Shown here one piece after another: positions 1 through 39,596 of a stretch of 39,596 nucleotides of DNA. A program made the translations under genes and the position numbers. Within the stretch, counting starts at the first letter, position 1; the number at the start of each line of letters is the position of its first letter. The notes below the pieces were generated by a model. It had not been told where the DNA came from. It did no database searches and saw only the letters and a program-made list of their open reading frames with translations. Source of the stretch: Chrysochromulina tobinii (Eukaryota). The stretch is taken from positions 1 through 39,596 of the forward strand of contig JWZX01003357.1 of the NCBI GenBank assembly GCA_001275005.1. The letters are read 5' to 3'.

Positions 1-3000
1 CTGAGGCCGTACGACAAGCTGCGGTTGAGCAAGTGGCTCAGACCACGCCGCAGCACTGCTTTTGTGCGGGCGAGCTCTGCCGAGGACAGGTACCACGTCG
101 ACCAGCACCGAGACAGCTCCCGGTTGATCAGGTGCTTCAGGACCTTCAATCTCTGACGGGCCTGCGCCGCGCGGAGCTTGGCACCCTCGGTCGCGAACAA
201 CCAACCGGCGAACGCAACCGCCACGTGCCGGTTGATGACAAACCTTGCACCCTTGCGAAGCTTGCGCAGGACCTCGGCGCCCTCAACGGCCCTCTCGACC
301 CACGTTCTCCAGCCACGCGCGAGCTTGAGGTTGAGCAAGTGGCTGAGACCGCGCAGTAGAGCGTGGCGATCGCGCCCGATCTTCGCAACCTCAGCCCACG
401 AATTCCAACCGCGCACAAGCTCGCGGCTGATCAAGTAGCTCAGAGCCCGAGGCATCGGATCATCGCACGAGGCATTCGACGCGCGCCAGCCCGCGAAGCC
501 GAGCGCGAGCGCTCGGCTCATGATGAAGCTCGCGCCTTTGCGCAGCGTGCGAATCACCTCGGCACGCTCCGCGGACATCTCGACCCACGCGCCCCAGGCT
601 TGAGACAGCTCGCGGTTGAGCAGATAGCCCACGCTCTTGCGCATCGACTCGCGCCTCGCACTGAGCACAGCCCACCGCGTGTGCCAGCTCACCCAGCCGC
701 GCGCCATCTCGCGGTTGACAAAGTACAGCAGCGCCTTAGAGGTCGAGTCCTCACGAGGCGCTACCGCTGCTACCCAGCCACCGAAGCCGAGACCAAGCTT
801 CCGGTTTGCGAGCCTGCTCACCACCTTGGCCATATGCATCAGCTGCAGCGATTTCTCCCTCATCATATCAGCCCATGATCGCCACACCCTCGCCAGATGC
901 CGTGTCAGTAGCGCTCGAGCACATACCCGCGTGGCTTCCAGCCTGTCCGCACGGCCAAACGCACGCTCAGACCATGCCCGCCACGCTCGCGCGATCGACT
1001 CACTCATCAGCAACCTGACGACTCTGAGGCCCAGCTCACGTCGACGCACCAACTCGAGCCAAGCTGCCGCCCAGCTTTCAAAGCCGCGACTGGCCGCTCG
1101 GCTCATCAGGCGGCGCACCACAATCGAACACTTCGCCAAGAGATCGACGCAAGACTGTGCGCTGGCAGCGGCATCCCGCCAGCTCGAAAAGCATAGAGCC
1201 ACCTCGCGAGAATGCAGATGAACAACGCCTCTGCGCAGCAGCTGCAGCTGCCGCGAGTGATCATCCTTCTTCTCGGCCCACGCTCGCCACCCACTCCCGA
1301 GGTGCCGCAGCATCCATGCGTGAACACAAACCCTGAGCGCGTGCAGCCTTTGAGCGCGGCTGCGCGCGAACTCATCCAATGACCGCCACGCTCGGACAAT
1401 CGACTGGCTCGTGAGCGACCGAAGACATTCTCGCCCAAGCCTCAACACTCGTGAGACGGAAGCAGCCTCGACCCATCTCGTCATGCACAGAGCCAACTCG
1501 TGCGAGCGCAGGCGAGCCGCGCCCCTGCGCAGCTTCTGCAGAGACGCCGCGTGCTCAGCCGCCTTCTCGGACCACGTTCTGAGGCCGTACGACAAGCTGC
1601 GGTTGAGCAAGTGGCTCAGACCACGCCGCAGCACGGCCTTCTTGCGCGTGAGCGTCAGCGATCTCACATACCACGCCGACCAGGCTCGAGACAGCTCCCA
1701 GTGAAGTAGGCGTAGAAGAGCTTTTGACAATCTTCCTGCCTTCGTTGCAAGAAGCTTTGCATCGCTATTAGAGGACAGCCATCCGGCGAAGCTGTTCGCA
1801 AGCTTACGGTTGCTCATGAAGCTCGCGCCCTTGCATAGCTTGCGAATGACCTCGGCGCGCTCAATCATCAAGTCGGCCCACACGCCCCAGGCTCGAGACA
1901 GCTCACGGTTGAGTAGGTAGCCCACGCTCTTACGCATCGACTCGCGCTTCGCGTCGAGCTGCGAGAATGCCGCGCACCAACAAGTGAAGCCAAGAGCCAA
2001 CTTCCCCTTTGCAAGTCTGCTCACAACCTTGCGTAACAATTTCAGCTGACGTGACTGCTCACTTGCGATCTCGGCCCATATTCGCCACCCGGTCGCCAGA
2101 TGCCGTGTTACCAATGATCGAACACAACGCTGCTCTGCTTCCAGCCTGTCCGCACGGCCAAACGCACGCTCAGACCATGCCCGCCACACTCGCGCGATCG
2201 ACTCACTCATCAGCAACTTGACGACTCTGAGGCCCAGCTTACGTCGACGCACCGACTCGAGCCAAGCTGCCGCCCAGCTTTCAAAGCCGCGACTGACAGC
2301 TTGGTTCACGAGTCGACGCACAAAGATCGCAGCCCTGGAAAAGGCGTCGATGTAAGCGTGGGAACTATCAGAAGCCTCACGCCACTTCTTCACGCAGAGA
2401 GCCAACTCTCGCGACCGCAGTCTAGAAATAACCTTACGCAGCGTCTTCTTAGATGATGCACGCTCAGCCGCAATCTCGAACCACACGCAGATGGCGTGAG
2501 TCAGCTCAAGGTGGAGGAAGTACCCCAAGCTCTTATGGATTGACCTGCGCTTTGCGTCAAGCTGCGCGACCGCTGTGGACCAACCAGCAAAACCGAGCGC
2601 GAGAGTCTGGTTGGTGAGTCTGCTCCCAAACTTGCGCAGAGACTGAAGGAACACTGTGCGTTCCGCAGTCATCTCTGACCACATGCTAAAAGCGAACGAC
2701 AATTCGCGATTCGAAAAGTGGCTCAGACCCCGTCGCAGTAACGTCTTGTAAAGTACGAGCGTCCCAGACATGACGTACAAAGCCGACCAACCCCGGGAAA
2801 GCTCTCGTCTCACCCAGAGTAGCAAAGCCTTAGAAATCTGACAGGCCTGTGCCGAACGGTGCTGCACGTGCTCATTCGAAGACACCCAGAAGGCGAAAGC
2901 GAGCGCCGCACGACGATTGATCATAAAACTAATACGCTTGCGAAGCTCGCGAATGATCACAGCGCGATCCACTGCACTCTTGATCCACACGGACCAGCGA

Positions 3001-3750
3001 AAGGAAAGCACACGAAAGCGCACGTAGCCAAGGCTCTTGTACATCGACTCGCGACGCAATTCAAACTCAACCCAAATCGAAAGCCAAGCTGCCCAAGCTC
3101 GAGAGAGCTCCTGGCTCATCAGACGTGTCAGGGCTATCGACAGTTGGTCGGCTTGCGCCACAAAGCGTTGAGCTTGCTCGACCGACAAGTGCAAACCGGC
3201 GAAGCCGATCGCCAGCTGACGGTACATCATGTACCTCGTGACTTTGCGCACCGTCTGCAGGTACGCCGACCGCTCAGCCACCATCTCCGACCACGCGCCC
3301 CAGCCTGCCGACAGCCCGCGATTCATGAAGTGGTTTTGACCTTGCCGCATATCCGCCTCCGAGCGCACCATTGTTTGCCATTTTGTCCACCCGCGCGATA
3401 GCTCGCGGTTTACCAGGTGGCTGAGGACCTTGTGCATGACCTCGCGTGTCGCCTCGAACTCCGTTTGCCAACGACGCCATCTCACCCAACCGCGCGCCAT
3501 ATCGCGGTTAACAAAGTACTTTTCTATGAAGGTTGCAGCCTTACGAAGCTTGCGCATGAATTCGGCGCGTGCCGCGGATATCTGTATCCAATTCACCCAG
3601 CCACTCAATAGCTCGTAGTTGTGGTTCACCATGAAGCTCATGCTGTTGCGCATCATCTGGATGATAGCAGAGCGCTCAGCCACCATTTGGGACCAAGCGT
3701 TAAAGCCGCGCGACAGGCCGCGGCTGATCAAGTAGCTCAGAGCACGCGAC
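1..3750 (-). repeat. Coding repeat array 2: degenerate ~33-aa Sfi1-like repeats, continues off window
   Basis: Same motif family, e.g. AVLRRGLSHLLNRSLSYGL and MRKSVGYLLNRELSQAWGAWVEMSAER. Shares near-identical nucleotide blocks with array 1. Confidence 0.8.
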
Positions 3751-6700
3751 CTCGGATCTGCACGGCGAGAAGTGGGGAGTGAGCGTTGCGCTGCGTAGCA
3801 GGGTTCGGGCTGCTTTTTGGGCATCGAGTCCGCTCCTTCGCGGAGCAGCTCAGGTGCCTCATTCTCTTCCACTGCCATCGAGGCGGCACTCGTTTCGGGG
3901 CCGCTTTGAGAACGCTCAGCAGATGATGCCTGGGCCGCCGCCGTCGCCGCCATCGCCTGTTGCTGCAGCGCGCGGGCGAAGACTTCGAGTTCGGCAGCGA
4001 GCGCGGTGCGTTCCACTTGCGCGGCGCTCGCGACGGCAGCGCCAGCCTGTGCCACGGCGGCGGCTAAGGACTCCTCACGTGCCGCCGCGACCGCCACCTG
4101 CAGCTGACGCGCTGATGCGTCCGCCGCGACCTCTTTTGCGCGAACAGTTTGGACGAGCGTTTCGATACGCTCCTCGAGGGTCCGCACCTTACCGCGCATC
4201 CGACTTAGCTGATCCTCGCTCGTGCGTCGGATGGCGCTTGTCTCCTCGTCTGCGCCGCGCCGTATGGCACTGGTCTCCTCGTCCGCAACGCGGCGTGCGA
4301 TGCTGAGCTCCTGGCGTGCCGCATGCAACTCCTCATCAGCCACGCGCCGCGCGCCCGCCATCTCATTCTCAAGCGCTCGCATCGTCTCGAGAAGCGTCTC
4401 GAGGGAGCACTGGGCGGCGACCGCCTTGGAGGCGGCAAGGGACTGGTCGCGTCGCCAGCTGCGCAGGCTCCAGATGGTGATCAGTGCAGCGATGGCGAGC
4501 AGGGTGCTCGTGACAACCAAAAGCGCGCGGTCACGGAGCTGCCTGGCCGCCAGCTCGGACGGCACTACCTCGTCCAACGCCTGCTCCAACACCGCCCGTT
4601 CCGCCTCCGCCTTATCGGCCGCCGCCCTTTCTGCCGCCGTAGCCCTCTCGGCTACCGCCTTTTCTGCCACTGCCCTCTCGGCAGCTTTGGTGGCCTCCGC
4701 CAGTGACAGGCGCAACACCACCAAGCTCGCCTCGCTTGCCTCCAGCTTCTGCCGCTGCGTCTCCAGTGCCGTTGCGGCCTTCGCCGCGGCTTCCACCTTG
4801 GCTTCCTCGACAGCGACTTGGACGGCGGATTGGACGGCGCGTTGATGGTCACCGAGGGCCTGCTCGCGCGTTGCAGCCACCGCCGCCGCCACCGCCGCCG
4901 CTTGCGCGACAGCAGCCTCTGCCACTGCTGCTGCCACCGCCGTCGCCTGCGCTTCAGCCCACCTGGCAGCGACGGCTGCGTCCTCCTCGGCTGCGGCGGC
5001 GGCAGCCACCTGGCTTGCCCTGACTGTTGCCGCCGCCACAGCTGCCTCTAACTCGGCCCTCGCTGCCTGCTGCGCCTCCACCACAGCCACCTCGAGCTTC
5101 GCATCTGCCGCTGCCTCAGCGGCCTTGAGCTTCGCAGCCGCTTCTGCCTCAGTGGCCTCAAGCTTCGCAGCCGCTGCTGCTTCAGCGGCCTCAAACTTCG
5201 CAGCCGCTGCTGCCTCAGCCGACGCAAGGCGCTCTGAGAGATTGCGTACAGCCGCCTGCGCCGCATCGAGCCGCTCGCGCGCGACGGCTGAGGCATCCTT
5301 ATGTGCGGCCTCAGCCTCATGGGCGGCCCCGAGCTGGGCGCGCACGTCGGCGAGCTCGCTGATGTGAGCCGCCGAGGCGGCGTCATGGGCTGCCAGCGTG
5401 GCCGCTGCGGTCGCGGCCGTCGTGGCCTCGGCGAGGCCCAAAGCCGACCGTGCGCTAGGCAAGCTATTGGCAACTGAAATGGGGAGGCTCATGTAGCCAA
5501 GCGGCGGCAGAGAAGTCGGCAGGTCTTGTTTAGCGTGTCTTGGAATAAGGGCGAGGGTCACCGCAACGAGCATGAGCATGAGCGCGAAGACGGCGCCCAA
5601 AGTGGTGCGTACGGATACATGCTCGAATGCAGAGCCAACGCCCTCCTGAAGGAGGAGCCGCCGGGCTGGCAATGGCGATGGCGATTGCAGCAGTGGTGAC
5701 GGTGAGAAGGGCAGTGGCGACGGCGAGAATGGCACTGGGCTCCCTGCAGAGGAAGTCTGCTCTAAAACGTTCTGCGCTTCGTGCAGCCACTGGGGCTCCT
5801 CGTCATCAATTCGCATCGTCGCGAGATCAGCCGTTGTATGGCGCCAGGAAGTCAAGCAACGAGCTAATCGACGATGCTCGAAGTGCAGCAGGGCCCGAGA
5901 CATGATACCAAGGCCTTCAGTCAGGCGCGCCGCCCGAGCAGCAGCAGCCTGGACCCACGTGACAAATCTGAACGAACGCTTATGGTTACGCAAGTAAACC
6001 AGGCTCTTAAGCATCAAAGCACTCTGCACCTTGAAATGACCGGAGGCGGCCAACCAACAAGCGAACCCTAGAAGAAGCTTATGGTTGGCGAGCCTGATCA
6101 AAGCCCTGCGCAGCGTCTGTAGGTAAGCCGACCGCCCAGCCGCCATCTCCGACCACGCGCCCCAGCCTACCGACAGCCCGCGATTGAGCATGTGGCTCAG
6201 ACCGCGCCGTATCACTGCCTTGTTGCGCGCGAGGGTCGCTGATGCCGAGTGCCACGCCGACCAGGCGCGAGAGAGCTCCTGGCTCATCAGACGTGTCAGG
6301 GCTATCGACAGCTGGCCGGCTTGCGCCACAAAGCGTTGAGCTTGCTCGACCGACAAGTGCCATGCGGCGAAGCCGATGGCAAGCTGACGGTACCTCATGA
6401 AGCTCGCCTTACGCAGCGCTTGCTCGAGGCAAGCGCGCCACCAGTAATTGTCATCTCGCTGGATCTGCCAACGGTTCCAGCCGTGCTTCATCTTTTGGCC
6501 GCGAAGGTAGCCGAGGCTCTTGCGCATCGACTCGCGCTGAGCTCTGCACAAAGCCCACTGCTTGATCCATGTTATCCAGCCACGCGACAGCCCGCAGTTG
6601 AACAAAAAGCGCAGGCTTTTCCGCATGAACTCGCGCATTGCCCCACAGACAGACGAGCGCGTTTGCCATTTTGTCCACCCGCGCGATAGCTCGCGGTTTA

Positions 6701-9700
6701 CGAGGTGGCTCAGGACCTTGTGCATGAACTCGCGCGTCGCCTCGATCTCCGCTTGCCAACGGCGCCATCTCACCCAACCGCGCACCATATCGCGGTTTAC
6801 GAAGTACACCTCTATGAAGGTTGCAGCTTTTCGAAGCTTGCGCATGAATTCGGCGCGAGCCGCGGACAATTGTACCCAAGCCAACCAACCACTCAAAAGC
6901 TCGTAGTTGTGGTTCACCATGAAGCTCATGCTCTTGCGCAACAGCTGGATAATCGCTGTGCAATCAGCCGCCATCTCCACCCACGCGCAGAAACCGCGCG
7001 ACAGGCTGTGGTTGAGCAGATGGCTCAGGCTCCTGCGGATTGATCTGCGCATCGCCGTGATCTTTTTCCAGTTCTTGTGCCATGTACGCAGACCCCTCAG
7101 CCTGATCAGCGCTGAAACGGAGACAGCTGTCGATCGCTGCCGCATCGTGATATTGACCCAGGTATCCAAAGCGCTGCGCATCGCGCGGCCCTCAGGCTGC
7201 AGCGAGCTCAGAGCGCCGGCCAGCACGCGCGACGCCTCCGCGTGCTCCTCAGCATACGACATCCACGTGTTCAGGCTCGCACGCATGCTCGACTGCAGCA
7301 TCGACGCCGCCGCGCGCCGCATGGCAGCGTCGCGCTCACTTTCGCTGCACACATGCTCGTGCCACGTGCCGAACGCACCTCGTGTTTCGCTCATGCGGAG
7401 AGCAGCTGTGGCGCAGCGCACAGACTGCAGCGCCTCCTTGGCAAACTCGCTCCAGCTCTTGATCGCCTTACGCATGCTGCGCTTCGCAGGAGACAGCGAG
7501 CTTAGAGTTGAGCGCAGTTGCTGCTTCGTCACAGAGACCTCCGTCGCGGACACCCACGACGCGAAGCCGGCGCGCTGAAGACGCAGCGACATACAGTTGA
7601 CGGCCGACGCCATCACCTGCCGATCGTGCAGCAGGCCCAGCCAGCCGTTCCACGCCTTGCGCATACCGTCGCCGCGGAACGCCGACGCAGCTGAGAGCAG
7701 CGCCTGCTGGTTACGCTGGCGAGCCTCTGACATCGCGACCCACGTGTTCATCGCCGCCCGCAAGCTCTGAAGCGACATGCTCTTGATCGCTCGCCGCAGC
7801 GGCTCCTCGACTTCTACCTGATACCTCTGATTGAGCGCCACGTAAGCATACCACACAGTCCATCCCGAGGCGACTGACCGGTTGCTCAAGTACTGCTTCG
7901 AGATCCTCAAGTACGACTTCGAGATCTGGTCGCCGCGAGGTGCGAGCGCTTCACGCCACACAGCGAAGCCGAGCGCAAGCCTTCGGTTGGTCATCACGAT
8001 CAGCCCCTCGCGCAGCTTCTGCACGAGCTCCTGCAGCTCAATCGCCGCCTTGGACCACGCGCCGAGGCCCCGCGACAAGCTACGGCTGAGCACGTGCCCG
8101 AGGCTCTTGCGCGTCATCTCGCAATTTTCCTTGACTGCCTTCCACACGGATCGCCACCGAGCCCATCCACGTGCCAGCCCGCGGAAGTCATGGGCTTGTG
8201 TCTGCCACCATTTGCGCCTATAAGGGATGGTCCTCAACGGCGAGAGCTGTTCCGGGGTTCGAACAGCTGAGAGCGAGCGCTGCGCCGCGAATTGGAGCGC
8301 AGCTTGCTTGTTGAGCACAAAACTGACACCCTTGTTGAGCAGCTGCAAGAATTCCGCATGCTCAGCCGCCCTCTCCTTCCAAGCGCAAAAGCTGAATGAC
8401 AGCTTGCAAAGGGACATGTGGCCCATGCTCGAAAGCATCCTCGCAAGAGTTGCGACCCGATCGGCCCATTTCTCATGCCAGGCGGTCCAGCCGCGCCACG
8501 CGAGCAGTCGGGGCACGTACTCATTCTTGAAGAAAAGCACGGCAGCAGACATGTCTCGAGGGGCGCGAGCCTGGACCCACGAGATGAACCCGAACGCAAG
8601 CTTGCGCTTGAGCCTGATGCGCAGGCCCTCGCGTAGCAGCTGCAGGAACGCCGACCGCTCCACAGCCATCTCGGACCACGCGCCAAAGCCGCGTGAGAAG
8701 CTGCGGCTGAGAAGGTGCTCCAGGCTCTTGCGCATCGCACCGCGCTTGGCCATAAGCTCCTCGCGATTCCACAACCACGCAGTCAAGCCCCTGGCGACTA
8801 AGCGGTTGCTGAGGTACGGCAGCACCTTCGACATGGGGTCGCCGCGCGGCGCGAGCGCTGCACGCCAACCACCGAAGCCGAGCGCAAGCCTTCGGTTGGT
8901 CATCACAATCAGCCCCTCGCGCAGCTTCTGCACGAGCTCCTGCAGCTCGATCGCCGCCTTGGACCACGCGCCGAGGCCCCGCGACAAGCTACGGCTGAGC
9001 ACGTGCCTGTGGCTCTTGCGCGTCATCTCGCAATTCTCCTTGACTGCCTTCCACACGGATCGCCACTGAGCCCATCCACGTGCAAGCTCAAAGTTAATGA
9101 AGATGAGCTCGCGATTCGCCTCGGCTGCTTCCCACGTTGACAACCACTCAGCCCACCCGCGTACCAGGCTGCGCTTCATGGAGTATCTCAGAGCACGAAC
9201 CATCGGCTCGAGCACAACCAACCATCTGCGCCAGGCCACCCAGCCGCGAGCCAACTTGCGGTTGACGAAGTACATCTCCTTGAGTCGTGCACCAAGGCTC
9301 GCCCTGCGAAGCTTGCGCATAAGATTGTTGCGATCCTCGCGCATCTTGACCCACGCGACCCAGCTACGCGATAGCTCGCGGCGCACAGCCACCATCTGCA
9401 TCCACACGCCGAAGCCGCACGACAGGCTGCGGCTGAGCAGGTGGTTCATGCTCAAAAGCATCCTCGCAAGAGCTGCGGCCCGATCGGCCCATGTCTCATG
9501 CCAGGCGGTCCAGCCGCGCCACGTGAGCAGTCGGGGCACGTACTCATTCTTGAAGAAAAGCACGGCAGCAGACATGTCTCGAGGGGCGCGAGCCTGGACC
9601 CACGAGACGAACCCGAACGCAAGCTTGCGCTTGAGCCTGATGCGCAGGCCCTCGCGTAGCAGCTGCAGGAACGCCGACCGCTCCACAGCCATCTCGGACC

Positions 9701-10847
9701 ACGCGCCAAAGCCGCGTGAGAAGCTGCGGCTGAGAAGGTGCTCCAGGCTCTTGCGCATCGCACCGCGCTTGGCCATAAGCTCCTCGCGATTCCACAACCA
9801 CGCAGTCAAGGCCCGGGCGAGCACGCGCCTTAGATCGTGGCCCAAGCTCCTGCGCCTCAACTCACGCTCCACTGCAAGCCAGCGCCAGATCCACGCTGTC
9901 CAGCCCCGAGCGAGCTTGGAGGGAGACATGAAAGTCGCACCCTTGCGTAGCAGCTGCAGTAACAACGCGCGCTCAGCCGCCATCTCAATCCACGTGCCGA
10001 AGCCGCGTGACAGGCTGCGGTTGAGGAGGTGGCTCAGGCCCTTGCGCATCAACTCGCGCATCGCGGAGAGGTACTCCCAGCGCCAAACCCAAGCCGTGCA
10101 GCCCCGAGCGAGCTCACGTCTGAGCAGATGGCCCAGGCCCCTGCGCATCAACTCGCGCTCTGCTTTAAGATCCTCCCAGCGCCAAGTCCACGCCGTCCAG
10201 CCCCGAGCGAGCTCGCTGTTGAATGAGTACAGCAGCGCCTTCGACATCGGGTCGAAAAACAAGTAGCTCAGAGCACTCGTTCTCCCTTGGGCGCGCTCGG
10301 GCGCCCGTGGCGCACTTGATCCCCCCTGGGCACTTTGCGGTCGCAACGGGGTCGCCGCGATATTCTCGCTAAGGTCCGTCTGTTGCAGGGGCGCCCGTGC
10401 GGTGCGATCTTGTACCGGATCCTCCGCAAAAATCCCGGGCGTATCCAACTGCAGCGGCGCATCGTGTGTCACGTAGCTCAGATCGAAAGGGACTTCGAAC
10501 GGAACAAACGAAGGGATATGGTGAGCAAATGCGGAGGCGACGTCGACCAGGACTCGGGCCGTTTCGATTGCATCGAGCCATTCGCGTATTGGGAGCTCTC
10601 CGACCGAACTTCGGAACCACACAGAGCGCTCCACATTTTTCAGCACAAGTACCTCACCAACGATTGATGCCGAGCTGCTTCCATCCAGGAGGAAGTAGCA
10701 CTTGCGTTGCCGCGCCCTCCAGAACAGAAACGCTGCGTTGCCGTTGCACCTCGGAATGAGCGTGATCTGGCGCGCGTTCCACGTTTTGAGATACTCACTG
10801 CGCTTGAGCAATATGCCAGTGAGCATTGGCCCCAAGCCAACCTCCAT
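1..10847 (-). CDS. Giant (>=3,615 aa, 3'-incomplete) PH-domain / Sfi1-like repeat / two-TM scaffold protein
   Basis: Read codon by codon on the minus strand: no in-frame stop from ATG 10847 to the window edge; upstream in-frame TGA at 10875-10877. N-terminus is PH-like (MLTGILLKRSEYLKTWNARQITL...RSVWFRSSVGELPIREWLDAIETAR). Then ~33-aa repeats such as KGLSHLLNRSLSRGFGTWIEMAAER, TM segments at 5544-5600 and 4464-4526, and a second repeat array. Probably omitted from the ORF track because its stop lies outside the window. Confidence 0.9.
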   Translation of the reverse strand, partial: MEVGLGPMLTGILLKRSEYLKTWNARQITLIPRCNGNAAFLFWRARQRKCYFLLDGSSSASIVGEVLVLKNVERSVWFRSSVGELPIREWLDAIETARVLVDVASAFAHHIPSFVPFEVPFDLSYVTHDAPLQLDTPGIFAEDPVQDRTARAPLQQTDLSENIAATPLRPQSAQGGSSAPRAPERAQGRTSALSYLFFDPMSKALLYSFNSELARGWTAWTWRWEDLKAERELMRRGLGHLLRRELARGCTAWVWRWEYLSAMRELMRKGLSHLLNRSLSRGFGTWIEMAAERALLLQLLRKGATFMSPSKLARGWTAWIWRWLAVERELRRRSLGHDLRRVLARALTAWLWNREELMAKRGAMRKSLEHLLSRSFSRGFGAWSEMAVERSAFLQLLREGLRIRLKRKLAFGFVSWVQARAPRDMSAAVLFFKNEYVPRLLTWRGWTAWHETWADRAAALARMLLSMNHLLSRSLSCGFGVWMQMVAVRRELSRSWVAWVKMREDRNNLMRKLRRASLGARLKEMYFVNRKLARGWVAWRRWLVVLEPMVRALRYSMKRSLVRGWAEWLSTWEAAEANRELIFINFELARGWAQWRSVWKAVKENCEMTRKSHRHVLSRSLSRGLGAWSKAAIELQELVQKLREGLIVMTNRRLALGFGGWRAALAPRGDPMSKVLPYLSNRLVARGLTAWLWNREELMAKRGAMRKSLEHLLSRSFSRGFGAWSEMAVERSAFLQLLREGLRIRLKRKLAFGFISWVQARAPRDMSAAVLFFKNEYVPRLLAWRGWTAWHEKWADRVATLARMLSSMGHMSLCKLSFSFCAWKERAAEHAEFLQLLNKGVSFVLNKQAALQFAAQRSLSAVRTPEQLSPLRTIPYRRKWWQTQAHDFRGLARGWARWRSVWKAVKENCEMTRKSLGHVLSRSLSRGLGAWSKAAIELQELVQKLREGLIVMTNRRLALGFAVWREALAPRGDQISKSYLRISKQYLSNRSVASGWTVWYAYVALNQRYQVEVEEPLRRAIKSMSLQSLRAAMNTWVAMSEARQRNQQALLSAASAFRGDGMRKAWNGWLGLLHDRQVMASAVNCMSLRLQRAGFASWVSATEVSVTKQQLRSTLSSLSPAKRSMRKAIKSWSEFAKEALQSVRCATAALRMSETRGAFGTWHEHVCSESERDAAMRRAAASMLQSSMRASLNTWMSYAEEHAEASRVLAGALSSLQPEGRAMRSALDTWVNITMRQRSTAVSVSALIRLRGLRTWHKNWKKITAMRRSIRRSLSHLLNHSLSRGFCAWVEMAADCTAIIQLLRKSMSFMVNHNYELLSGWLAWVQLSAARAEFMRKLRKAATFIEVYFVNRDMVRGWVRWRRWQAEIEATREFMHKVLSHLVNRELSRGWTKWQTRSSVCGAMREFMRKSLRFLFNCGLSRGWITWIKQWALCRAQRESMRKSLGYLRGQKMKHGWNRWQIQRDDNYWWRACLEQALRKASFMRYRQLAIGFAAWHLSVEQAQRFVAQAGQLSIALTRLMSQELSRAWSAWHSASATLARNKAVIRRGLSHMLNRGLSVGWGAWSEMAAGRSAYLQTLRRALIRLANHKLLLGFACWLAASGHFKVQSALMLKSLVYLRNHKRSFRFVTWVQAAAARAARLTEGLGIMSRALLHFEHRRLARCLTSWRHTTADLATMRIDDEEPQWLHEAQNVLEQTSSAGSPVPFSPSPLPFSPSPLLQSPSPLPARRLLLQEGVGSAFEHVSVRTTLGAVFALMLMLVAVTLALIPRHAKQDLPTSLPPLGYMSLPISVANSLPSARSALGLAEATTAATAAATLAAHDAASAAHISELADVRAQLGAAHEAEAAHKDASAVARERLDAAQAAVRNLSERLASAEAAAAAKFEAAEAAAAAKLEATEAEAAAKLKAAEAAADAKLEVAVVEAQQAARAELEAAVAAATVRASQVAAAAAAEEDAAVAARWAEAQATAVAAAVAEAAVAQAAAVAAAVAATREQALGDHQRAVQSAVQVAVEEAKVEAAAKAATALETQRQKLEASEASLVVLRLSLAEATKAAERAVAEKAVAERATAAERAAADKAEAERAVLEQALDEVVPSELAARQLRDRALLVVTSTLLAIAALITIWSLRSWRRDQSLAASKAVAAQCSLETLLETMRALENEMAGARRVADEELHAARQELSIARRVADEETSAIRRGADEETSAIRRTSEDQLSRMRGKVRTLEERIETLVQTVRAKEVAADASARQLQVAVAAAREESLAAAVAQAGAAVASAAQVERTALAAELEVFARALQQQAMAATAAAQASSAERSQSGPETSAASMAVEENEAPELLREGADSMPKKQPEPCYAAQRSLPTSRRADPRSRALSYLISRGLSRGFNAWSQMVAERSAIIQMMRNSMSFMVNHNYELLSGWVNWIQISAARAEFMRKLRKAATFIEKYFVNRDMARGWVRWRRWQTEFEATREVMHKVLSHLVNRELSRGWTKWQTMVRSEADMRQGQNHFMNRGLSAGWGAWSEMVAERSAYLQTVRKVTRYMMYRQLAIGFAGLHLSVEQAQRFVAQADQLSIALTRLMSQELSRAWAAWLSIWVEFELRRESMYKSLGYVRFRVLSFRWSVWIKSAVDRAVIIRELRKRISFMINRRAALAFAFWVSSNEHVQHRSAQACQISKALLLWVRRELSRGWSALYVMSGTLVLYKTLLRRGLSHFSNRELSFAFSMWSEMTAERTVFLQSLRKFGSRLTNQTLALGFAGWSTAVAQLDAKRRSIHKSLGYFLHLELTHAICVWFEIAAERASSKKTLRKVISRLRSRELALCVKKWREASDSSHAYIDAFSRAAIFVRRLVNQAVSRGFESWAAAWLESVRRRKLGLRVVKLLMSESIARVWRAWSERAFGRADRLEAEQRCVRSLVTRHLATGWRIWAEIASEQSRQLKLLRKVVSRLAKGKLALGFTCWCAAFSQLDAKRESMRKSVGYLLNRELSRAWGVWADLMIERAEVIRKLCKGASFMSNRKLANSFAGWLSSNSDAKLLATKAGRLSKALLRLLHWELSRAWSAWYVRSLTLTRKKAVLRRGLSHLLNRSLSYGLRTWSEKAAEHAASLQKLRRGAARLRSHELALCMTRWVEAASVSRVLRLGRECLRSLTSQSIVRAWRSLDEFARSRAQRLHALRVCVHAWMLRHLGSGWRAWAEKKDDHSRQLQLLRRGVVHLHSREVALCFSSWRDAAASAQSCVDLLAKCSIVVRRLMSRAASRGFESWAAAWLELVRRRELGLRVVRLLMSESIARAWRAWSERAFGRADRLEATRVCARALLTRHLARVWRSWADMMREKSLQLMHMAKVVSRLANRKLGLGFGGWVAAVAPREDSTSKALLYFVNREMARGWVSWHTRWAVLSARRESMRKSVGYLLNRELSQAWGAWVEMSAERAEVIRTLRKGASFIMSRALALGFAGWRASNASCDDPMPRALSYLISRELVRGWNSWAEVAKIGRDRHALLRGLSHLLNLKLARGWRTWVERAVEGAEVLRKLRKGARFVINRHVAVAFAGWLFATEGAKLRAAQARQRLKVLKHLINRELSRCWSTWYLSSAELARTKAVLRRGLSHLLNRSLSYGL
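5094..5220 (-). repeat. Four 33-bp coding tandem repeats (11-aa A/E/K-rich units) in the loop between the two TM helices
   Basis: Plus-strand unit approximately (g/a)agcttcgcagccgctgctgcctcagcggcctc repeated about 4 times; encodes EAAAAAK(L/F)EAA-type units. Confidence 0.75.
5830..10250 (-). repeat. Coding repeat array 1: degenerate ~33-aa Sfi1-like repeats
   Basis: Consecutive units LARGWTAWTWRWEDLKAERELMRRGLGHLLRRE / LARGCTAWVWRWEYLSAMRELMRKGLSHLLNRS / LSRGFGTWIEMAAERALLLQLLRKGATFMSPSK are each 33 aa. They resemble the Sfi1 consensus A-x7-LL-x3-F/L-x2-W. Boundaries approximate. Confidence 0.8.
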
Positions 10848-11063
10848 ACCTAATGGGCGGCCGATTGACGAAGGTCAAAGGCCGCCCAGGAGGCCACCGT
10901 CGGACGGTGAGGCGCGCTGAAAGGGGGAAGAGCACAAGTTTCGTGGCAATCACAAGTTTCTGGCTGATATGACGCGCTGCGAAAGCACGAAGGGCGATCT
11001 AGCACGACAGCACAACTCCTTCGGCAGCTAGCTTTAGGAAGCTAATTTAGTACGGTGCAGTAA

Positions 11064-13242: not shown

Positions 13243-14022
13243 TCAAGCTGCCGGGTGCTCACGCAGCCATGTGGCTGCTCCCCCTTTGGCGAAGTCGGAG
13301 CAATCATCGATCGAGGCGCTCGCCACCATCGAGTAGTAGCGGCGCGCCATCTTCTCGTCCTCCGGGAAGCCACAGAGGCCACCAGCGTATGCGTTTCCCA
13401 TAAGGTAGCACGCGTTTTTGCTGCCGCGTCCGGCAGCCTCGCTCATCAGCGTAGCGCCACGCGCAAGGCACTTTGGCACGCCAATCCCCTCCAAGTAGCA
13501 CATGGAAAAGCCGGCAGTCGCACATGAATCCCCAGCCTCGTGGCTCTTCTCGAACCACTCGAACGCCTTGGCATCGTCCTTTGCGAGGCCCTTCTGACCA
13601 AGCTTGTACCAAGCTCCCAGGATGTACATCGCCACGCCATCACCAGCCTCGGCCTTACGCCGCACCTCCGCCACCTTCTCCTCCTCCTCCAGCTTCAGCT
13701 TCCACGCGTCCACCTTGTCACCCGTGAGAGCGCCCGAGCTGACCATCGCGCGGATCATGTTCTTGACCCGCAGCGCCGGCAGCAGCTTCGTGCCCATCGC
13801 CAAGTTCGTCACCGGGCTCTTGTGCTGCTTCTCGAGCCACTCCTCGATGGCCGAGCGCTCGTACACGTTGCCGTCCTCCGCCGTGACGGGGTCGACGGGG
13901 AGCGACCAGGTGATGGGGCAGACGAGCTCGGCAAAGGCCTCCTCGGTGGCGCTCTTGTGTCGGCGCAGCTGCACCGTCTCGTCCTCGGCCTCGGCAGCCT
14001 CGCGGCCGCGCTTGGGCGGCAT
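13243..14022 (-). CDS. U-box domain + SEL1-like repeat protein (putative E3 ligase)
   Basis: U-box ELVCPITWSLPVDPVTAEDGNVYERSAIEEWL...SPVTN. SEL1 repeats AMYILGAWYKLGQKGLAKDDAKAFEWFEKS and ACYLMGNAYAGGLCGFPEDEKMARRYY. Confidence 0.92.
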   Translation of the reverse strand: MPPKRGREAAEAEDETVQLRRHKSATEEAFAELVCPITWSLPVDPVTAEDGNVYERSAIEEWLEKQHKSPVTNLAMGTKLLPALRVKNMIRAMVSSGALTGDKVDAWKLKLEEEEKVAEVRRKAEAGDGVAMYILGAWYKLGQKGLAKDDAKAFEWFEKSHEAGDSCATAGFSMCYLEGIGVPKCLARGATLMSEAAGRGSKNACYLMGNAYAGGLCGFPEDEKMARRYYSMVASASIDDCSDFAKGGAATWLREHPAA

Positions 14023-14072
14023 GGCGACGCTGTTACGCGTGGTTGACGGGCCCTTTTCCTCTCGCGGGCTGG

Positions 14073-14094
14073 AATGCCGCTTGACCCCTTCGGT
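14073..14094 (+). repeat. Dispersed hairpin motif, copy 2, interrupted after ...cggt by a retroelement terminus
   Basis: aatgccgcttgaccccttcggt is followed directly by aaaaagacaccggggggagccgggac. Confidence 0.75.
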
Positions 14095-14121
14095 AAAAAG
14101 ACACCGGGGGGAGCCGGGACA
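14095..14121 (-). mobile_element. Short inverted copy of the retroelement terminal motif
   Basis: aaaaagacaccggggggagccgggaca is close to the reverse complement of 15010-15034; the same 19-mer (aagacaccggggggagccg) occurs at 16303-16321. Confidence 0.65.
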
Positions 14122-15041
14122 TCAACGACGCCAACAACACCGCCCGCCACAACTCCACCCTCTACGCCACCTACCACGCCATCAAAGCCGTCATCCCCCC
14201 AGCCGCGCCACCCGCCCCCGTCGTGCTCTGCGACCGCGGCGACGGCTCCCCCGCGTCGAAGGAGACCGCGCGGCAGCGCTGGGCCCACGTGAACGCGGGG
14301 CACGTGCCCGACATCGCCCGCCTCGGCACGCCCCCCCACGCGTACGAGCTCAAGGTGTACACGCCGTACAACCAGACGGTCGCGCTCGGCCTCGGCTCAA
14401 CGCGCAACGGCGGCGCCCCATCCACCGCTGAGGGCCACACCCACGCCTTCGGTTGCACGGAGGAGAACCTCCGCAAGCTCGTGCTCGGCCTCAAGCAGGT
14501 AGGCAGCAGGAGCGACGCGCCCTACGACCGCGCGACCGGCGCCGGCTTCGTCGCCGCGCACAACGGGCAGTACGCCGACGCCCTCTCCAAAGGCGTCGGC
14601 GTCTCCCTACTCGTCGCCGAGACCACAGGTGCGCTCGCAGCCTCATTCATGACCATCCTTCGCCTCCTCGCTCGCCAGACACGCCTCCCCGGCGCCACCG
14701 ACAACACGCGATACGGCGAGGGCCGCGCGTCCCCCCGCAGCTTCCTCACACACCACGTCGCCAACATCTCCACTGCCATCCAAACCGCCGACGCCCAGAC
14801 CATCCTCAACGCCGCCAGTGCGCGCATGCTACGCGTCTCGTTTGGGGTCATGTAAGGTGTGTGTATTCTGAGCGGGCAGTAACAGTGCCGTAACACCGGC
14901 TGTCGCGTCTGTCGTGTTAACGTTCACACACCGCGCGCACGGGCGCACCTGTCCGAACCCGGCAAATCGTGTATCGTCTGTGTGATCCCGCTTGTGTCTG
15001 TCCCGTGTGTGTCGCCGGCTTCCCCGGTGTTTTTGAACGGT
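14121..15041 (+). mobile_element. 5'-truncated non-LTR retrotransposon remnant (restriction-like endonuclease region + 3' UTR)
   Basis: Frame 14121-14855 has no N-terminal start and reads INDANNTARHN...HVPDI...AYELKVYTPY...QYADALSKG..LLVAETTGAL. This shows the RH(N/D), PD..(D/E)xK and ETxG motifs of RLE-clade element C-termini. A TG-rich 3' UTR ends ccggtgtttttgaacggt. Confidence 0.7.
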
Positions 15042-16390: not shown

Positions 16391-16625
16391 CCTCTTAACC
16401 ATCCCTATTTGGACCCATGAACTTGATATTTTTGAGGAAATTTTGAGGACTTTTGGGGCTGTTTCAAAAAGAAGTTTTGTGTTTTGGCACAAAGCACTTC
16501 TCGTGGGACGACCCCGCGACGACTTCGCATTCACGGGAGTCGGCCTGCAAGCCACACCTCACAGTAAGAGCGCGTTGCAGGCGGCATCGTTCGCGCCGCG
16601 TGTTGCCCGGCAATAGCACGGCCTC

Positions 16626-18139
16626 ATGCCCCCGTCAGCTCCTGAGGGTGGGAAGAAGAAGAAGGCGGCCGCAGAAGCGGACGGCGTTCAGCTCATGCCA
16701 GTTGAGAAGCTGCAGGAGATTGCGGATGCCAAGATCGCCGAGGCATCCGCCGTAGAACTGGCAGCGCAGCACATGTCCACAAGTCTGGAGCTAAAGATTG
16801 GGGTCGCAATTCAAAAGCAAAAGATGAGCGTTGCGGACCTCCTCCGCAAGTGGGACGCCAGCGGTGACGGCGAGATCCAGCCCATTGAGCTTCGGCAGGT
16901 TGTGCGCAACCACCTCAAAATCAAGGCTGACAACAAGGAGATTGACGCCCTCTTCAACAGGCTGGACAGTGACGGCGGCGGCTCGATCGATTTGAAGGAG
17001 ATGGGCGATGCAATGAGGTTTTTCCAGCAGTCGGTGGCGACGGCCGCCGCAGATGAGGCAAAGCAGATGGCAATTGCCAAGGAGTTGCGCGATCAGGCAG
17101 CCATGATCTCTGATTGCGCAAAGAACACAGCCCGCGTGGAGGAGCTTAGGGTTAAGGTGAATGGCATCAAAAGCGGCGTGTGCAGTGGGCCGCTTTTTGA
17201 TAAGATTGCTATGGCAATCGTGGGCTTAGCCACGTCGACGAACGAGAGCGACGCGAAATCAAAGGTGGCGAACTCTCTGGACCCCCAAAAGGCAGGCATC
17301 GTCGAGGCCAAGGAATTCAAGAAGTGGGCCAAGGGATTCATCAATAATCCGGATGGCGTGGCGCCCGATGAGTATGCCACGTGCTACGAGGATTTGCAGG
17401 TGGCGACCGGTACGTCTCCATTGGATGCCAAGATGGGCTTCAGGAAGCTGTGGGATCGCGTCGAAGAGACGATTAAGGAATCGGAGGCTGTAATCAAAGA
17501 GTTCGAGAAGCTTCAGAAGGAGACCAAGAAGGTGCAGAAGGCAATCAAGGAGATGCAGGCTGCGGACAAAGCCATTGCGCAGGAGAAGGAGGCGGCGGCA
17601 CTCAAGGCGGAGGAGGAGAGGCAGCTAGAGGCCGAGGCCAAGAAAGCAGCTAAGGCGGCGGCCAAGGCGGCGGCGCTTGAGGCCAAGAGGAACCATGAGC
17701 AGAGCTTCAACAATCGCGTTGAGATGAAGCGCAAGGCCGCCGCCAAACAAGGGCAATCAGCGTCGGACAAGAAGGCGGCGGAGGCACGGATGCGCAAGGC
17801 CTTTGCCGTCTTCGACGTCGACGGCGACGGCAGCCTGACGGTGGACGAGCTGAAGGCGGTGCTGCTGCGCGGCGACTCGGTGCTCACCGAACAAGACGTT
17901 GAGGATCTCGTCAAGGAGTTCGACGCCAACGGGAACGGCGTGCTCGAGTTTGACGAGGTGATGAGGGCGGTCTCGAACCCAAAGCGTGCCCATTCGCGTC
18001 GCAGTCCAGCCACTGCTGTGTCTGCACCATACCCCTGCCTGCCTCGATTGCTGACTGCTGCGTGGTCCAATCGTGGCAGTTTCAACCGCTCTTCGACGTT
18101 CTTAACGAAGTGGGCTTCGACAATCCGATGGCGTGCTGA
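16626..18139 (+). CDS. Multi-EF-hand Ca2+-binding protein with central coiled coil (exons 16626-17957 and 18080-18139)
   Basis: EF loops DASGDGEIQPIEL, DSDGGGSIDLKEM, DVDGDGSLTVDEL, DANGNGVLEFDE|F. A GT-AG intron at 17958-18079 (with ctgac branch-like site) restores the last EF helix FQPLFDVL...AC*. The track ORF reads through the intron. Confidence 0.85.
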
Positions 18140-18747
18140 GCCACACGCTAGCATGGCCACGCGGTCATATCTCAGCCGTTTGGAGCGCTGGGATCTGGCT
18201 GGGATACGTGAGTGGGGTCGCCGACTGGAATATTGTCGCTGACATGCTCTTCTGGACGCCATCGCTGGTATCAATTAACGTGGTCGTGGCGTGTGTGTGT
18301 CTGTTAAAACGGCGCCTCGTCGTGACGTGTGTGTGTGTCGAAGGCGCCGTGTTAAAAGATGAAACGTTGTACGTTGGGTTGGGGTCGACCGACTCCTCAA
18401 GAGAGAGATTTGTAACTGACCAAGGTCCAAGCTCTAGTAGCTACCCACATAGCTCACATACTTTCGTACTTACGTGTTACGAATCCGGGATGTTGAACAG
18501 TTCTGTGAACAGTCAACGGATCAATACAGCGAACAGCCTAAGCGGCGCCGCTCCGCTTTCATGTAAGCCCAAGGGCCCGGCCCAAGGCCAACGGCCGGCG
18601 CGCCCGCTCGCGGGGACGTGTGTGAATAATCGCATTTAAAGAAACCGCTGAGGAGTTGCGATTTTTGCATTTGGCCCAGAGGCGCAAGAGGCCTGGGGTT
18701 CAGACCCGGGCAAAAACGAGGTGTGAATGATCATGCCATTCCGTCGT

Positions 18748-18777: not shown

Positions 18778-18998
18778 CGTGAACCAACGTGTGAAGAGAG
18801 ACAGACAGTCGCCCGGCCAGGGGGAAGGGGTATGCGGGGAGAGGTCTCCCTGCCGTTTGGGGTATTGGGCATACCATGGGGATACATACCTGGGGGAGAT
18901 TCGCAGCGCAATGACGCGCATGATGTCGGTCTCTCTTTCGAGAGTTAAGTGTTCCCGCCCACCCACCGCGATGTAAGCCTGGTCTAGCTTAATTAGCA

Positions 18999-19106
18999 GG
19001 GACCGGGGTTTCGCGCTCACCAGGCTGCTTGTGTAGCTTTGATGATCTGCAATTAACAGTTTCAACGCGCGACCAGGTTTACTGCGGGGTATTTGTTGAA
19101 GTGTGA
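18999..19106 (+). repeat. Dispersed ~85-110 bp element, copy A, just upstream of the DNA methyltransferase ATG
   Basis: 18999-19083 is a close reverse-complement match to 39510-39596; weaker similarity continues to tgtgaa at about 19106. Confidence 0.85.
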
Positions 19107-32040: not shown

Positions 32041-32423
32041 GGGTGCCCGCACTTCTTTCTTGCAAGACTGGTCCGCTAAAGAGGGCACGCGCGGAGGGCC
32101 TGCGAGCGCGCACGGAGGCGCCGGCGAGGTGAGCAAACGGTGTGGGCTCGGGCGAGGTGAGCCAACGGTGCGCGCTGGCTACCTCACAGTCGTCCTCGCA
32201 GGGTGCACTCGCAACTTTGCTGATGCTTCGTTTCTTGGATGAAGAATGTTGCGTCGTCGAGGTTGAGGGAGGTTTACATACTACATGTAGCAACGCGACA
32301 TCTTCAAACCCACTCGGTTCGCATGCTGTGAGCGACTGCTCGGAGAGTTTCGTTTCCTTCGCAATCAACGGACGTGGCGGTTCTCGGTGGTTTCTCGGTG
32401 CGTCTTTTCGCGGTCCACGAGGC

Positions 32424-39452: not shown

Positions 39453-39483
39453 TTGCTCGACGCCATTTGCTCGACGCCGGTCA

Positions 39484-39596
39484 TTCACAGCTCTCACAGT
39501 AGACCGGGTAGTAAACCTGGTCGCGCGTTGAAACGTTGAATTGCGGTTCATCAAAGCTACACAAACGCAGCCTGGTGAGCGCGACAACCCGGTCCC
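39484..39596 (-). repeat. Dispersed element, copy B, upstream of the PH gene; runs to the window end
   Basis: agtaaacctggtcgcgcgttgaaac..ttgc...tcatcaaagctacacaa..gcagcctggtgagcgcga....ccggtccc is the reverse complement of 18999-19083. Confidence 0.85.

What the first reader, a model, noticed from the sequence alone, without database searches (positions are those of the whole stretch)
1..10847. Hidden >10.8-kb uninterrupted ORF: giant PH + Sfi1-like repeat protein
Seen: one stop-free minus frame of >=3,615 codons, unreported by the ORF track, with an N-terminal PH-like domain and ~8 kb of ~33-aa Trp-anchored repeats (roughly 80 by length; an estimate, not a count). Known: Sfi1 repeats (A-x7-LL-x3-F/L-x2-W, 33-aa spacing in human SFI1) each bind a centrin, and giant Sfi1-repeat proteins scaffold Ca2+-driven contractile centrin fibres in ciliates. 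Inference: this is a giant centrin scaffold with a lipid-binding head. If the host is a haptophyte, it is a candidate component of Ca2+-triggered haptonema coiling or basal-body fibres.
Basis: partly seen in the sequence, partly recalled or inferred. Interest (0 to 1): 0.88.

Follow-up and report, generated by a model that had tools for sequence, protein, structure and literature searches.

The report
Giant membrane-anchored centrin scaffold in alga
A haptophyte alga carries an unbroken gene of at least 3,615 codons that likely runs on to about 10,000 residues, built from regular tryptophan-anchored helical repeats that likely bind the calcium sensor centrin and predicted to be pinned in a membrane, so it would be a giant, seemingly overlooked tether for calcium-sensitive fibres.

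Summary
The ORF is real: 3,615 stop-free codons with 75 scored Trp-anchored repeats (null max 1), 42 of 74 spacings being 33 aa. The host is Chrysochromulina, very likely C. tobinii.

(1) Two predicted transmembrane helices flank an Ala-rich helical segment mid-protein. (2) The contig ends inside a collapsed 1,578-bp tandem unit, about 10 passes by depth. (3) The gene continues into 31 more repeats and ankyrin repeats, a link also seen in one independently assembled protein. Estimated length is about 9,400-10,500 aa (~1.1 MDa, ~260 repeats).

The repeats match Sfi1 in period, L-x3-F/W-x2-W triad (62 of 75), low proline and predicted single helix. They lack the first L of LL and the K/R after W, and Pfam and PDB profiles do not find Sfi1. 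Centrin binding is untested. The head is a divergent PH-like domain; lipid binding is untested. A haptonema role is speculative, since published centrin there is only spots near the tip. Earlier scan notes hold nothing on this family.

The parts
3..10847 (-). Giant ORF, 3,615 codons, open at the contig end
   Evidence: RNA contigs of 3 of 3 RNA runs laid cover it in pieces, no joint listed inside it for RNA (19 of 34 joint rows were not shown)
10846..10905 (-). Region where RNA contigs end; weak hint of the transcript 5' end just upstream of the ATG at 10847
   Evidence: RNA contigs end at 10846, 10903 and 10905 while the DNA contig runs on to 13095
10548..10832 (-). Divergent PH-like domain (aa ~6-100)
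   Evidence: no Pfam hit; single-sequence model inconclusive
10321..10326 (-). The only homopolymer run of 6 or more in the ORF (G6), in the linker after the head; two relatives change frame at or near it
   Evidence: P0037, P0038 shift; P0065 stays in frame
5814..10256 (-). N-terminal repeat block, 38 scored 33-aa Sfi1-like repeats, with internal 341-aa and 303-aa duplications
7157..7760 (-). Divergent repeat sub-block shared with many other loci; borders approximate
   Evidence: DNA contig depth about 800-2300 against about 40 elsewhere, RNA about 50-60; related block in P0029
5544..5600 (-). Predicted transmembrane helix 1 (aa 1750-1768)
   Evidence: Kyte-Doolittle 19-mer 2.77
4533..5300 (-). 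Ala/Glu-rich, proline-free helical segment between the two predicted TM helices, with a 33-bp tandem repeat at 5090-5219; inferred luminal or extracellular
   Evidence: 41% Ala, 0% Pro; net charge -16 between the helices
4470..4526 (-). Predicted transmembrane helix 2 (aa 2108-2126), followed by basic residues
   Evidence: Kyte-Doolittle 2.33
3918..4469 (-). Second proline-free helical, coiled-coil-like segment
   Evidence: an 86% identical relative covers aa ~2206-2322
3..3761 (-). C-terminal repeat block, 37 scored repeats inside the window
57..1634 (-). One pass of a 1,578-bp (526-aa, 16-repeat) tandem unit that is collapsed in the assembly; about 10 full passes estimated
   Evidence: junction read through in P0066
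1..56 (-). Start of the second pass (identical to 1579-1634); the contig ends here

Best explanation
The window holds the first 3,615 codons of a gene that likely encodes a roughly 10,000-residue protein whose 33-residue repeats likely each bind one centrin-family EF-hand protein along a predicted single long helix, and whose two predicted transmembrane helices would pin the fibre to a membrane. Shown: the ORF, the repeats and their period, the tandem loop at the contig end, and the link to an ankyrin C-terminus in a related assembly. Predicted: a continuous helix, two TM helices, a PH-like head. Inferred: centrin binding, a cytosolic PH head with a short arm (~38-45 repeats, ~0.2 um if straight), a luminal or extracellular helical loop, and a long cytosolic arm (~220 repeats, ~1.1 um if straight) ending in ankyrin repeats. 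The most likely role is a centrin-coated tether or fibre that links a membrane (ER cisterna, nuclear envelope or plasma membrane) to the basal-body or flagellar-root apparatus. Its length would be set by tandem amplification of repeat blocks. With few prolines it would be more a stiff, calcium-tunable strut than a kinked ciliate-type contractile spring.
For: Period: 42 of 74 spacings are 33 aa, the length that PMC2063913 gives for non-fungal Sfi1 repeats and that suits centrin-centrin contacts (passages). Triad: hydrophobic at W-7, F/L/W at W-3 and W in 62 of 75 repeats; the L8xxxL4xxW1 triad is from the abstract of PMC3871271; raw triad count 65 against a shuffle maximum of 16. A small residue at the 'alanine' position in 51 of 75 (background 27%). 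Charged residues are rare at Li positions 22 and 30 (3% and 8%; published 2.9% and 7.0%); 9 of 33 positions are that low, so this is modest support. The first 12 positions of the published GSBP motif align at one register only, reached by 2 of 5000 shuffles. Proline is 20 of 2,735 residues. AF2 with a 21-row alignment gives one helix over four repeats, pLDDT 81.7. The hydrophobic stripe peaks near 90 degrees, not at the heptad angle, so it winds round the helix and suits a wrapping partner. One relative fuses such repeats to an EF-hand pair and a filamin domain (P0005). Membrane anchor: two segments stand out by hydropathy, and RNA and DNA contigs run from repeats into the first helix and across the second. 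Length. In two other haptophytes centrin lies mainly around basal bodies and root-like arrays (10.1101/2024.10.18.618984, passage).
Against: No hit to any Pfam Sfi1 model for this protein or for 16 relatives, and the repeat profile does not find Sfi1 peptides among PDB sequences. Two consensus positions fail: L at W-8 in 2 of 75, and K/R at W+1 in 13 of 75, equal to background. The seed repeats were chosen on the triad, so triad counts within scored repeats are partly circular; the shuffle-based counts are not. TM calls rest on hydropathy scales only, and no relative covering the helices was found (1 hit, outside them). The copy number rests on contig depth ratios, which the tool says are no copy number. 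The exit from the loop differs between P0066 and L002. The ORF passes through a multi-copy block at ~7157-7760 where an assembly could have joined two paralogues. The RNA evidence is contigs from mixed cultures that may contain DNA and may be one campaign.
Confidence: 0.55

Rival explanations
1. The repeats bind another partner: calmodulin or another EF-hand light chain (as IQ arrays do), or acidic microtubule surfaces through their basic face, giving a membrane-to-microtubule linker without centrin.
For: The repeat blocks are strongly basic (net +155 and +134). Two Sfi1 consensus positions fail. There is no profile hit to Sfi1. A Trp-anchored amphipathic helix is a generic EF-hand target (established knowledge).
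Against: No IQ motif, strict or relaxed, in 3,615 aa. IQ spacing is usually 23-26 aa, and 28-32 in Iqg1p (PMC2173958), while 33 aa is the Sfi1 mode. The GSBP-like front half and the low-charge positions 22 and 30 fit the centrin family.
Confidence: 0.2
2. The protein is the calcium-triggered element of haptonema coiling: a centrin- or spasmin-like coated fibre anchored in the cisterna round the haptonemal microtubules that shortens on calcium entry.
For: Coiling is Ca2+-triggered and motor-independent, its Ca2+-binding proteins are unknown, and the microtubules are wrapped in fenestrated cisternae (PMC6398456, passages). Size (~1.1 MDa) and tandem amplification resemble GSBP1/2 (13,125 and 17,974 aa). 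All species-labelled repeat relatives found are Chrysochromulina.
Against: Centrin is reported only as a dot or spots near the haptonema tip. The repeats lack the regular prolines of contractile ciliate repeats (8 of 68 intervals hold a proline; two per 69 aa in Spirostomum). There are no localisation data. Most hits carry no species label, so the distribution test could not be done.
Confidence: 0.12
3. The domain order is an assembly or strain artefact: two paralogous genes were joined through a shared repeat block, or the gene is a decaying product of repeat shuffling.
For: A multi-copy block lies inside the ORF. Family members share near-identical modules. Two of three relatives of the head change frame near the G6 run. 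No listed contig spans the whole ORF.
Against: There is no stop in 10.8 kb, nor in the 1,314-codon continuation. Single-copy DNA contigs in another run reproduce both flanks and the TM region with no differences. P0065 keeps head and repeats in frame at 90% identity, and P0066 keeps loop and ankyrin end in frame.
Confidence: 0.09
4. The 33-aa basic repeats fold as an alpha-solenoid (ankyrin, TPR or TALE-like) that binds nucleic acid.
For: The period equals that of ankyrin repeats (established knowledge), and the repeats are highly basic.
Against: AF2 gives one unbroken helix. There is no conserved turn or proline. No Pfam solenoid hit falls in the repeats, while true ankyrins in the same family are found at once. 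TM helices argue against a nuclear role.
Confidence: 0.04

Closest known systems
Sfi1/SFI1 of yeasts and humans (PMC2173958, PMC2063913; passages read)
   Same: 33-aa Trp-anchored period, L-x3-F/W-x2-W triad, small residue at W-16, low charge at positions 22 and 30, low proline, continuous helix.
   Different: Sfi1 has 20-24 repeats and no transmembrane domain; in yeast Kar1 anchors it to the nuclear envelope (PMC4477856, abstract start). This protein has 75 repeats in the window and ~260 estimated, W as often as F at W-3, no first L of LL, two predicted TM helices, a PH-like head and an ankyrin tail.
Giant ciliate centrin/spasmin scaffolds: GSBP1/2 of Spirostomum, Stentor Sfi1 family (PMC9946354, 10.1101/2024.11.07.622534, 10.1101/2025.08.11.669701; passages read)
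   Same: Megadalton size, no introns seen, higher-order tandem amplification, an expanded gene family, and a KG-x-x-R/H-x-L-x-R-K-L-A-like front half of the motif.
   Different: GSBP Trp sites are 69 aa apart with prolines that kink the helix and four extra residues before the Trp. Here the period is 33 aa with few prolines. The word 'transmembrane' does not occur in the two Spirostomum papers.
Tetrahymena Sfr1-13 basal-body proteins and human POC5 (PMC5112337; passages read)
   Same: A multi-gene family of Sfi1-repeat proteins in one protist genome.
   Different: Sfr1 is 212 aa with three repeats; nothing of this size or domain set appears in the passages read.
Chrysochromulina tobinii Ctob_013230 (KOO30673.1) and C. 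parva P015970/P014986, labelled hypothetical or by gene ID only
   Same: The same repeat family, about 32-39% identical to this ORF.
   Different: They are paralogues or fragments of 491-1,215 aa without the head, TM region or loop, and no source names a function.

Membership tests
Sfi1-repeat centrin-binding proteins | Tandem Trp-anchored repeats, mostly 33 aa apart outside fungi | tested here: met
   42 of 74 spacings are 33 aa; reference PMC2063913
Sfi1-repeat centrin-binding proteins | Hydrophobic triad L-x3-F/L-x2-W | tested here: met
   62 of 75 when W is allowed at the middle position; F or L there in 35 of 75, W in 47%
Sfi1-repeat centrin-binding proteins | Full consensus A-x7-L-L-x3-F/L-x2-W-K/R | tested here: not met
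   A 15 of 75, first L 2 of 75, K/R 13 of 75. Ciliate members also depart from it, so this lowers 'is Sfi1', not 'works like Sfi1'
Sfi1-repeat centrin-binding proteins | Low proline, continuous alpha helix | tested here: met
   20 Pro in 2,735 aa; AF2 single helix over four repeats, pLDDT 81.7, a prediction
Sfi1-repeat centrin-binding proteins | Match to curated Sfi1 profiles or solved Sfi1 peptides | tested here: not met
   No Pfam Sfi1 hit at E<=1; no Sfi1 chain among 4 PDB hits at E<=10
Sfi1-repeat centrin-binding proteins | One centrin bound per repeat | not testable with these tools
Sfi1-repeat centrin-binding proteins | Localisation to MTOC or centrin fibres | not testable with these tools
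   needs microscopy
Giant contractile spasmin-binding proteins (GSBP type) | 69-aa Trp spacing with helix-breaking prolines | tested here: not met
   Mode 33 aa; proline in 8 of 68 intervals
Giant contractile spasmin-binding proteins (GSBP type) | KG-A/V-M/L-R-x-L-x-K/H-K-L-A front motif | tested here: inconclusive
   Best PSSM register unique, reached by 2 of 5000 shuffles, but no exact regex match
Giant contractile spasmin-binding proteins (GSBP type) | Ca2+-driven compaction or contraction | not testable with these tools
   needs reconstitution
PH domain (Pfam PF00169) | Profile match and PH fold (beta sandwich with C-terminal helix bearing the conserved Trp) | tested here: inconclusive
   No Pfam hit for the domain; weak Akt PH hits; end-to-end alignment with a true PH domain; model pLDDT 53, fold searches uninformative
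PH domain (Pfam PF00169) | Phosphoinositide binding through basic residues of strands 1-2 | not testable with these tools
   K15, R16 and R26 are conserved in the 23-row family alignment; binding needs a lipid assay
Ankyrin repeat domain | Pfam Ank match at the C-terminus of the continuation | tested here: met
   L002 ORF aa 1108-1204, Ank_2 E 3.3e-15; this lies outside the window
IQ-motif calmodulin arrays | IQxxxRGxxxR motif | tested here: not met
   0 matches, strict or relaxed (motif recalled)

The most novel reading that the evidence does not exclude
A ~1.1-MDa, ~260-repeat centrin scaffold with its own two-pass membrane anchor, a lipid-binding head and an ankyrin tail wires a micrometre-long calcium-sensitive fibre directly onto the cisterna that stores the calcium. 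It is the flagship of an undescribed Chrysochromulina gene family that supplies the missing Ca2+-responsive machinery of haptonema coiling or flagellar-root movement.
Probability: 0.15. Interest if true: 0.92.

Novelty: new variant of a known kind. Interest (0 to 1): 0.68.

Why it matters
Giant centrin scaffolds are described from ciliates in the papers read here. Seven literature searches found none described for haptophytes and none with its own membrane anchor; two papers that mention both Sfi1 and haptophytes in passing were not read for it. If right, haptophytes have a large, modular Sfi1-like family (members with PH-like, ankyrin, filamin, EF-hand or TM parts), and this member would join a calcium-sensitive fibre to a membrane in one chain. 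It gives named candidates for the unknown Ca2+-responsive structures of the haptophyte flagellar and haptonemal apparatus. It also shows how a collapsed tandem array can hide a ~30-kb gene: no annotated C. tobinii protein for this ORF turned up in three homologue searches, one profile search and three cluster look-ups, though that is not proof of absence.

Tried and rejected
No whole genome is held for this window.

The ESM Atlas gave no result for this protein or a stored relative.

No centrin sequence could be had. A short centrin motif pattern gave 0, 2 and 33 hits in three scans; the 20 hit contexts printed were all unrelated.

The one complex job used two repeats plus the EF-hand pair of relative P0005 as a stand-in. 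It returned 'no answer' (score 0.00), which is no evidence either way.

The single-sequence model of the head (pLDDT 53) gave no informative Foldseek or VIA match, best Z 7.1 to unrelated folds. The four-repeat helix model gave no Foldseek hit. A PDB sequence search with the whole protein gave only chance hits. BLASTP of the head against the window's PH domain was not significant.

I first read the single-copy branch at 635 as the gene's end, with the short tail of P0027. I dropped this when both branches proved to lie inside the L002 ORF.

I considered an intron after the head, to explain the frameshifts in P0037 and P0038. It is disfavoured because unbroken RNA contigs span 9781 to ~10900 in 3 of 3 RNA runs.

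A collapsed loop at 7157-7760 is disfavoured because the RNA excess (~4x) does not follow the DNA excess (20x or more), unlike at the left end.

Lower RNA depth over 4003-5336 was not interpreted. The synonymous/non-synonymous counts on internal duplications were too few to use. The alanine-rich hydropathy peak at aa 1970 was rejected as a TM helix. PMC2168399 (Paramecium scaffold) is not held. PMC9010356 had nothing relevant in the part held. Earlier scan notes on Ostreococcus Trp-module proteins concern other sequences and were not used.
Full report
OBSERVATION. The minus strand from 10847 to 3 is one frame of 3,615 codons without a stop; the other five frames hold 50-131 stops. Base shuffles give at most 295 stop-free codons in 200 trials. 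GC at third positions is 0.73, against 0.73-0.82 in five neighbouring ORFs. A position matrix built from 65 seed repeats scores 75 repeats against at most 1 in shuffles; 42 of 74 spacings are 33 aa. The consensus read from the counts is R-K-G/S/A-L-S-H-L-L-N-R-x-L-A/S-R-G-W/F-x-x-W.

HOST. The neighbours are eukaryotic: myosin with WW, Tub, DNA methylase, U-box/Sel1, EF-hand and PH genes. Two of 19 repeat homologues are labelled Chrysochromulina parva, and one cluster member is C. tobinii Ctob_013230. A neighbouring gene's cluster holds a C. tobinii protein on a contig of 39,596 bases, the window's length. I infer that the window is a whole C. tobinii contig, so position 1 is a contig end.

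EXPRESSION. Nineteen of 21 listed runs hold at least half of the sampled words, and 6 of these are RNA; they may be one campaign and may include the source culture. In 3 of 3 RNA runs laid, contigs cover the ORF in pieces. No RNA-supported joint inside the ORF is listed, but 19 of 34 joint rows were hidden. RNA contigs stop at 10846-10905 while a DNA contig runs on to 13095, and RNA depth is 0-3 over 16676-18676. This is a fair hint of an unspliced transcript, not proof.

Residues 1680-2362 are not repeats. Two 19-mers stand out by hydropathy (aa 1750-1768, 2.77; aa 2108-2126, 2.33), and a third, poly-alanine peak fails a second scale. Between them lies a proline-free, 41% alanine helical segment; after the second come basic residues and another helical segment. 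The start shows no hydrophobic signal segment, so the simplest topology (inference) has both repeat arms in the cytosol and the middle loop across a membrane. The region is single-copy in DNA, and contigs from other runs link it to the repeats on both sides. The only relative found (86% identical, 117 aa) does not cover the helices, so their conservation is untested. Among the 37 other proteins of 300 aa or more scanned, only P0002 and P0004/P0007 show weaker hydrophobic peaks.

Window 1-56 is identical to 1579-1634. In four runs, a low-depth contig (1605-2166) and a high-depth contig (27-577) both overlap by 30 bases the start of a high-depth contig (1063-1634). This is the graph of a tandem loop of 1,578 bases, or 526 codons and 16 repeats, which keeps the frame. 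Depth ratios of 27-577 to the entry contig are 9.9 and 9.9 in DNA and 9.2 and 9.1 in RNA. That suggests about ten full passes, one of them in the window, transcribed at the level of the unique part. The tool warns that contig depth is no copy number, so this is an estimate.

Locus L002 begins with 127 bases identical to window 674-548, leaves at the branch seen, and stays open for 1,314 codons with 31 repeats and ankyrin repeats before a stop. The second branch, at 635, also lies inside L002. Independently, protein P0066 matches aa 3179-3615 at 98%, reads through the window end into the start of the unit, and ends in the same ankyrin tail, though it leaves the loop at another place. The arithmetic gives 9,439-10,491 aa for 9-11 passes, about 1,137 kDa and ~260 repeats for ten.

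THE REPEATS. For an Sfi1-like, centrin-binding nature: the 33-aa mode; the triad in 62 of 75; a small residue at the alanine position in 51 of 75; low charge at positions 22 and 30 as reported for Sfi1 (9 of 33 positions are that low); few prolines; one long helix in AF2; a hydrophobic stripe that winds round the helix instead of forming a heptad face; a unique, non-random fit of the published GSBP front motif; and a relative that carries an EF-hand pair in the same chain. Against: the first L and the K/R of the yeast consensus are absent, W replaces F in about half of the repeats, and neither Pfam nor a PDB profile search finds Sfi1. PMC9946354 notes that BLAST also failed to link GSBP to Sfi1. 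Binding itself could not be tested. It should therefore not be filed as an Sfi1 orthologue; it most likely works like one.

THE HEAD. A phmmer search of 1.84 billion representatives returned 27 hits. Two are low-complexity junk and two are near-identical relatives. The rest share a G-x-L-x-K-R-S-x-W...W-N-x-R...F-R...E-W-x-x-A-I pattern, sometimes in tandem or next to a canonical PH domain (P0045). None has a Pfam hit over this domain. The family profile hits the first two strands of Akt PH domains weakly (its top row is a repeat artefact) and aligns along 88 columns with the window's own PH domain. I rate it a probable divergent PH fold. P0065 keeps head and repeats in one frame; P0037 and P0038 shift frame near the single G6 run, which may be sequencing error or strain variation.

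THE FAMILY. The homologue searches returned 5 long and 19 shorter proteins with the repeat, some with filamin, ankyrin or EF-hand domains and their own higher-order periods (386, 259, 235, 94 aa). A block inside this ORF (~7157-7760) is present at many other loci. Repeat modules appear to be copied and swapped among paralogues. That block is also the weak point of the assembly, where two paralogues could have been joined.

MECHANISM (inferred). Each 33-aa unit would carry one centrin, C-lobe on the triad and N-lobe near the small residue, with centrin-centrin contacts building a filament, as solved for yeast Sfi1 (PMC2063913, passages; 15 repeats are 60 nm long). The protein would form a short arm (~0.2 um) and a long arm (~1.1 um) rooted in a membrane, with PH-like and ankyrin ends catching lipids or partner proteins. 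Yeast Sfi1 has no TM domain and needs Kar1 as anchor; here anchor and scaffold would be one chain. In two other haptophytes centrin lies mainly round basal bodies and root-like arrays, and in the haptonema only as spots near the tip, so a basal-body, root or cortical tether is likelier than a haptonemal motor. Low proline points to a stiffer rod than the ciliate contractile proteins. Divergent centrins missed by antibodies would leave the haptonema reading open.

PAPERS SEEN. Passages only: PMC2173958, PMC2063913, PMC6398456, 10.1101/322453, 10.1101/2024.11.07.622534, PMC9946354, 10.1101/2025.08.11.669701, PMC5112337, 10.1101/2024.10.18.618984, PMC9010356. Search listing and abstract start only: PMC3871271, PMC4477856. 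No supplements were opened. The ankyrin period, the IQ motif and the promiscuity of EF-hand lobes are recalled.

VERDICT. A real, likely transcribed, seemingly unannotated giant gene; a new architecture for an Sfi1-like scaffold; partner and location untested. Novelty: new variant of a known kind. Interest 0.68.

Noticed in passing
window 27872-32178, minus strand: A myosin head, coiled coil and WW domain (28338-31787, with upstream exon material to ~32178) overlap a Tub-domain ORF in another frame (27872-29224). They may be one spliced myosin-WW-Tubby fusion gene.
   Followed up: no
window 13243-14121 and L002 4008-5069: A multi-copy U-box + Sel1 gene lies 2.4 kb upstream of the giant ORF, and a paralogue lies just after the ankyrin stop in L002, so the reconstructed gene would be flanked by this family on both sides.
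   Followed up: no
window ~14091-14930 and ~18800-19060: High-copy repeat elements with many joints and loose ends in the DNA run (depth up to ~9,000 against ~40); possibly mobile elements.
   Followed up: no
window 10548-10832 and P0039-P0063: A family of divergent PH-like domains, missed by Pfam, occurs in many unrelated proteins, sometimes in tandem or beside PH, PDZ or MORN domains.
   Followed up: partly
window 10321-10326: Two of three relatives change frame near the single G6 run after the head, which would give a head-only product; error or real variation is unresolved.
   Followed up: partly
window 16617-18242, plus strand: A protein with EF-hand pairs joined by coiled coil; the C-terminal pair is calmodulin-like. 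Nothing links it to the giant ORF beyond proximity.
   Followed up: partly
window 32133-36002, plus strand: A 1,289-codon ORF with hydrophobic N-terminal segments and a DUF900 alpha/beta hydrolase domain.
   Followed up: no
window 36519-39596, minus strand: A second long ORF with an N-terminal canonical PH domain followed by low-complexity and coiled-coil-like sequence.
   Followed up: no
P0002, P0005, P0020, P0024, P0030, P0068: Other members of the repeat family carry their own tandem amplifications (386-aa unit in P0002) and varied end domains (filamin, EF-hand, ankyrin); named members are annotated only as hypothetical.
   Followed up: partly
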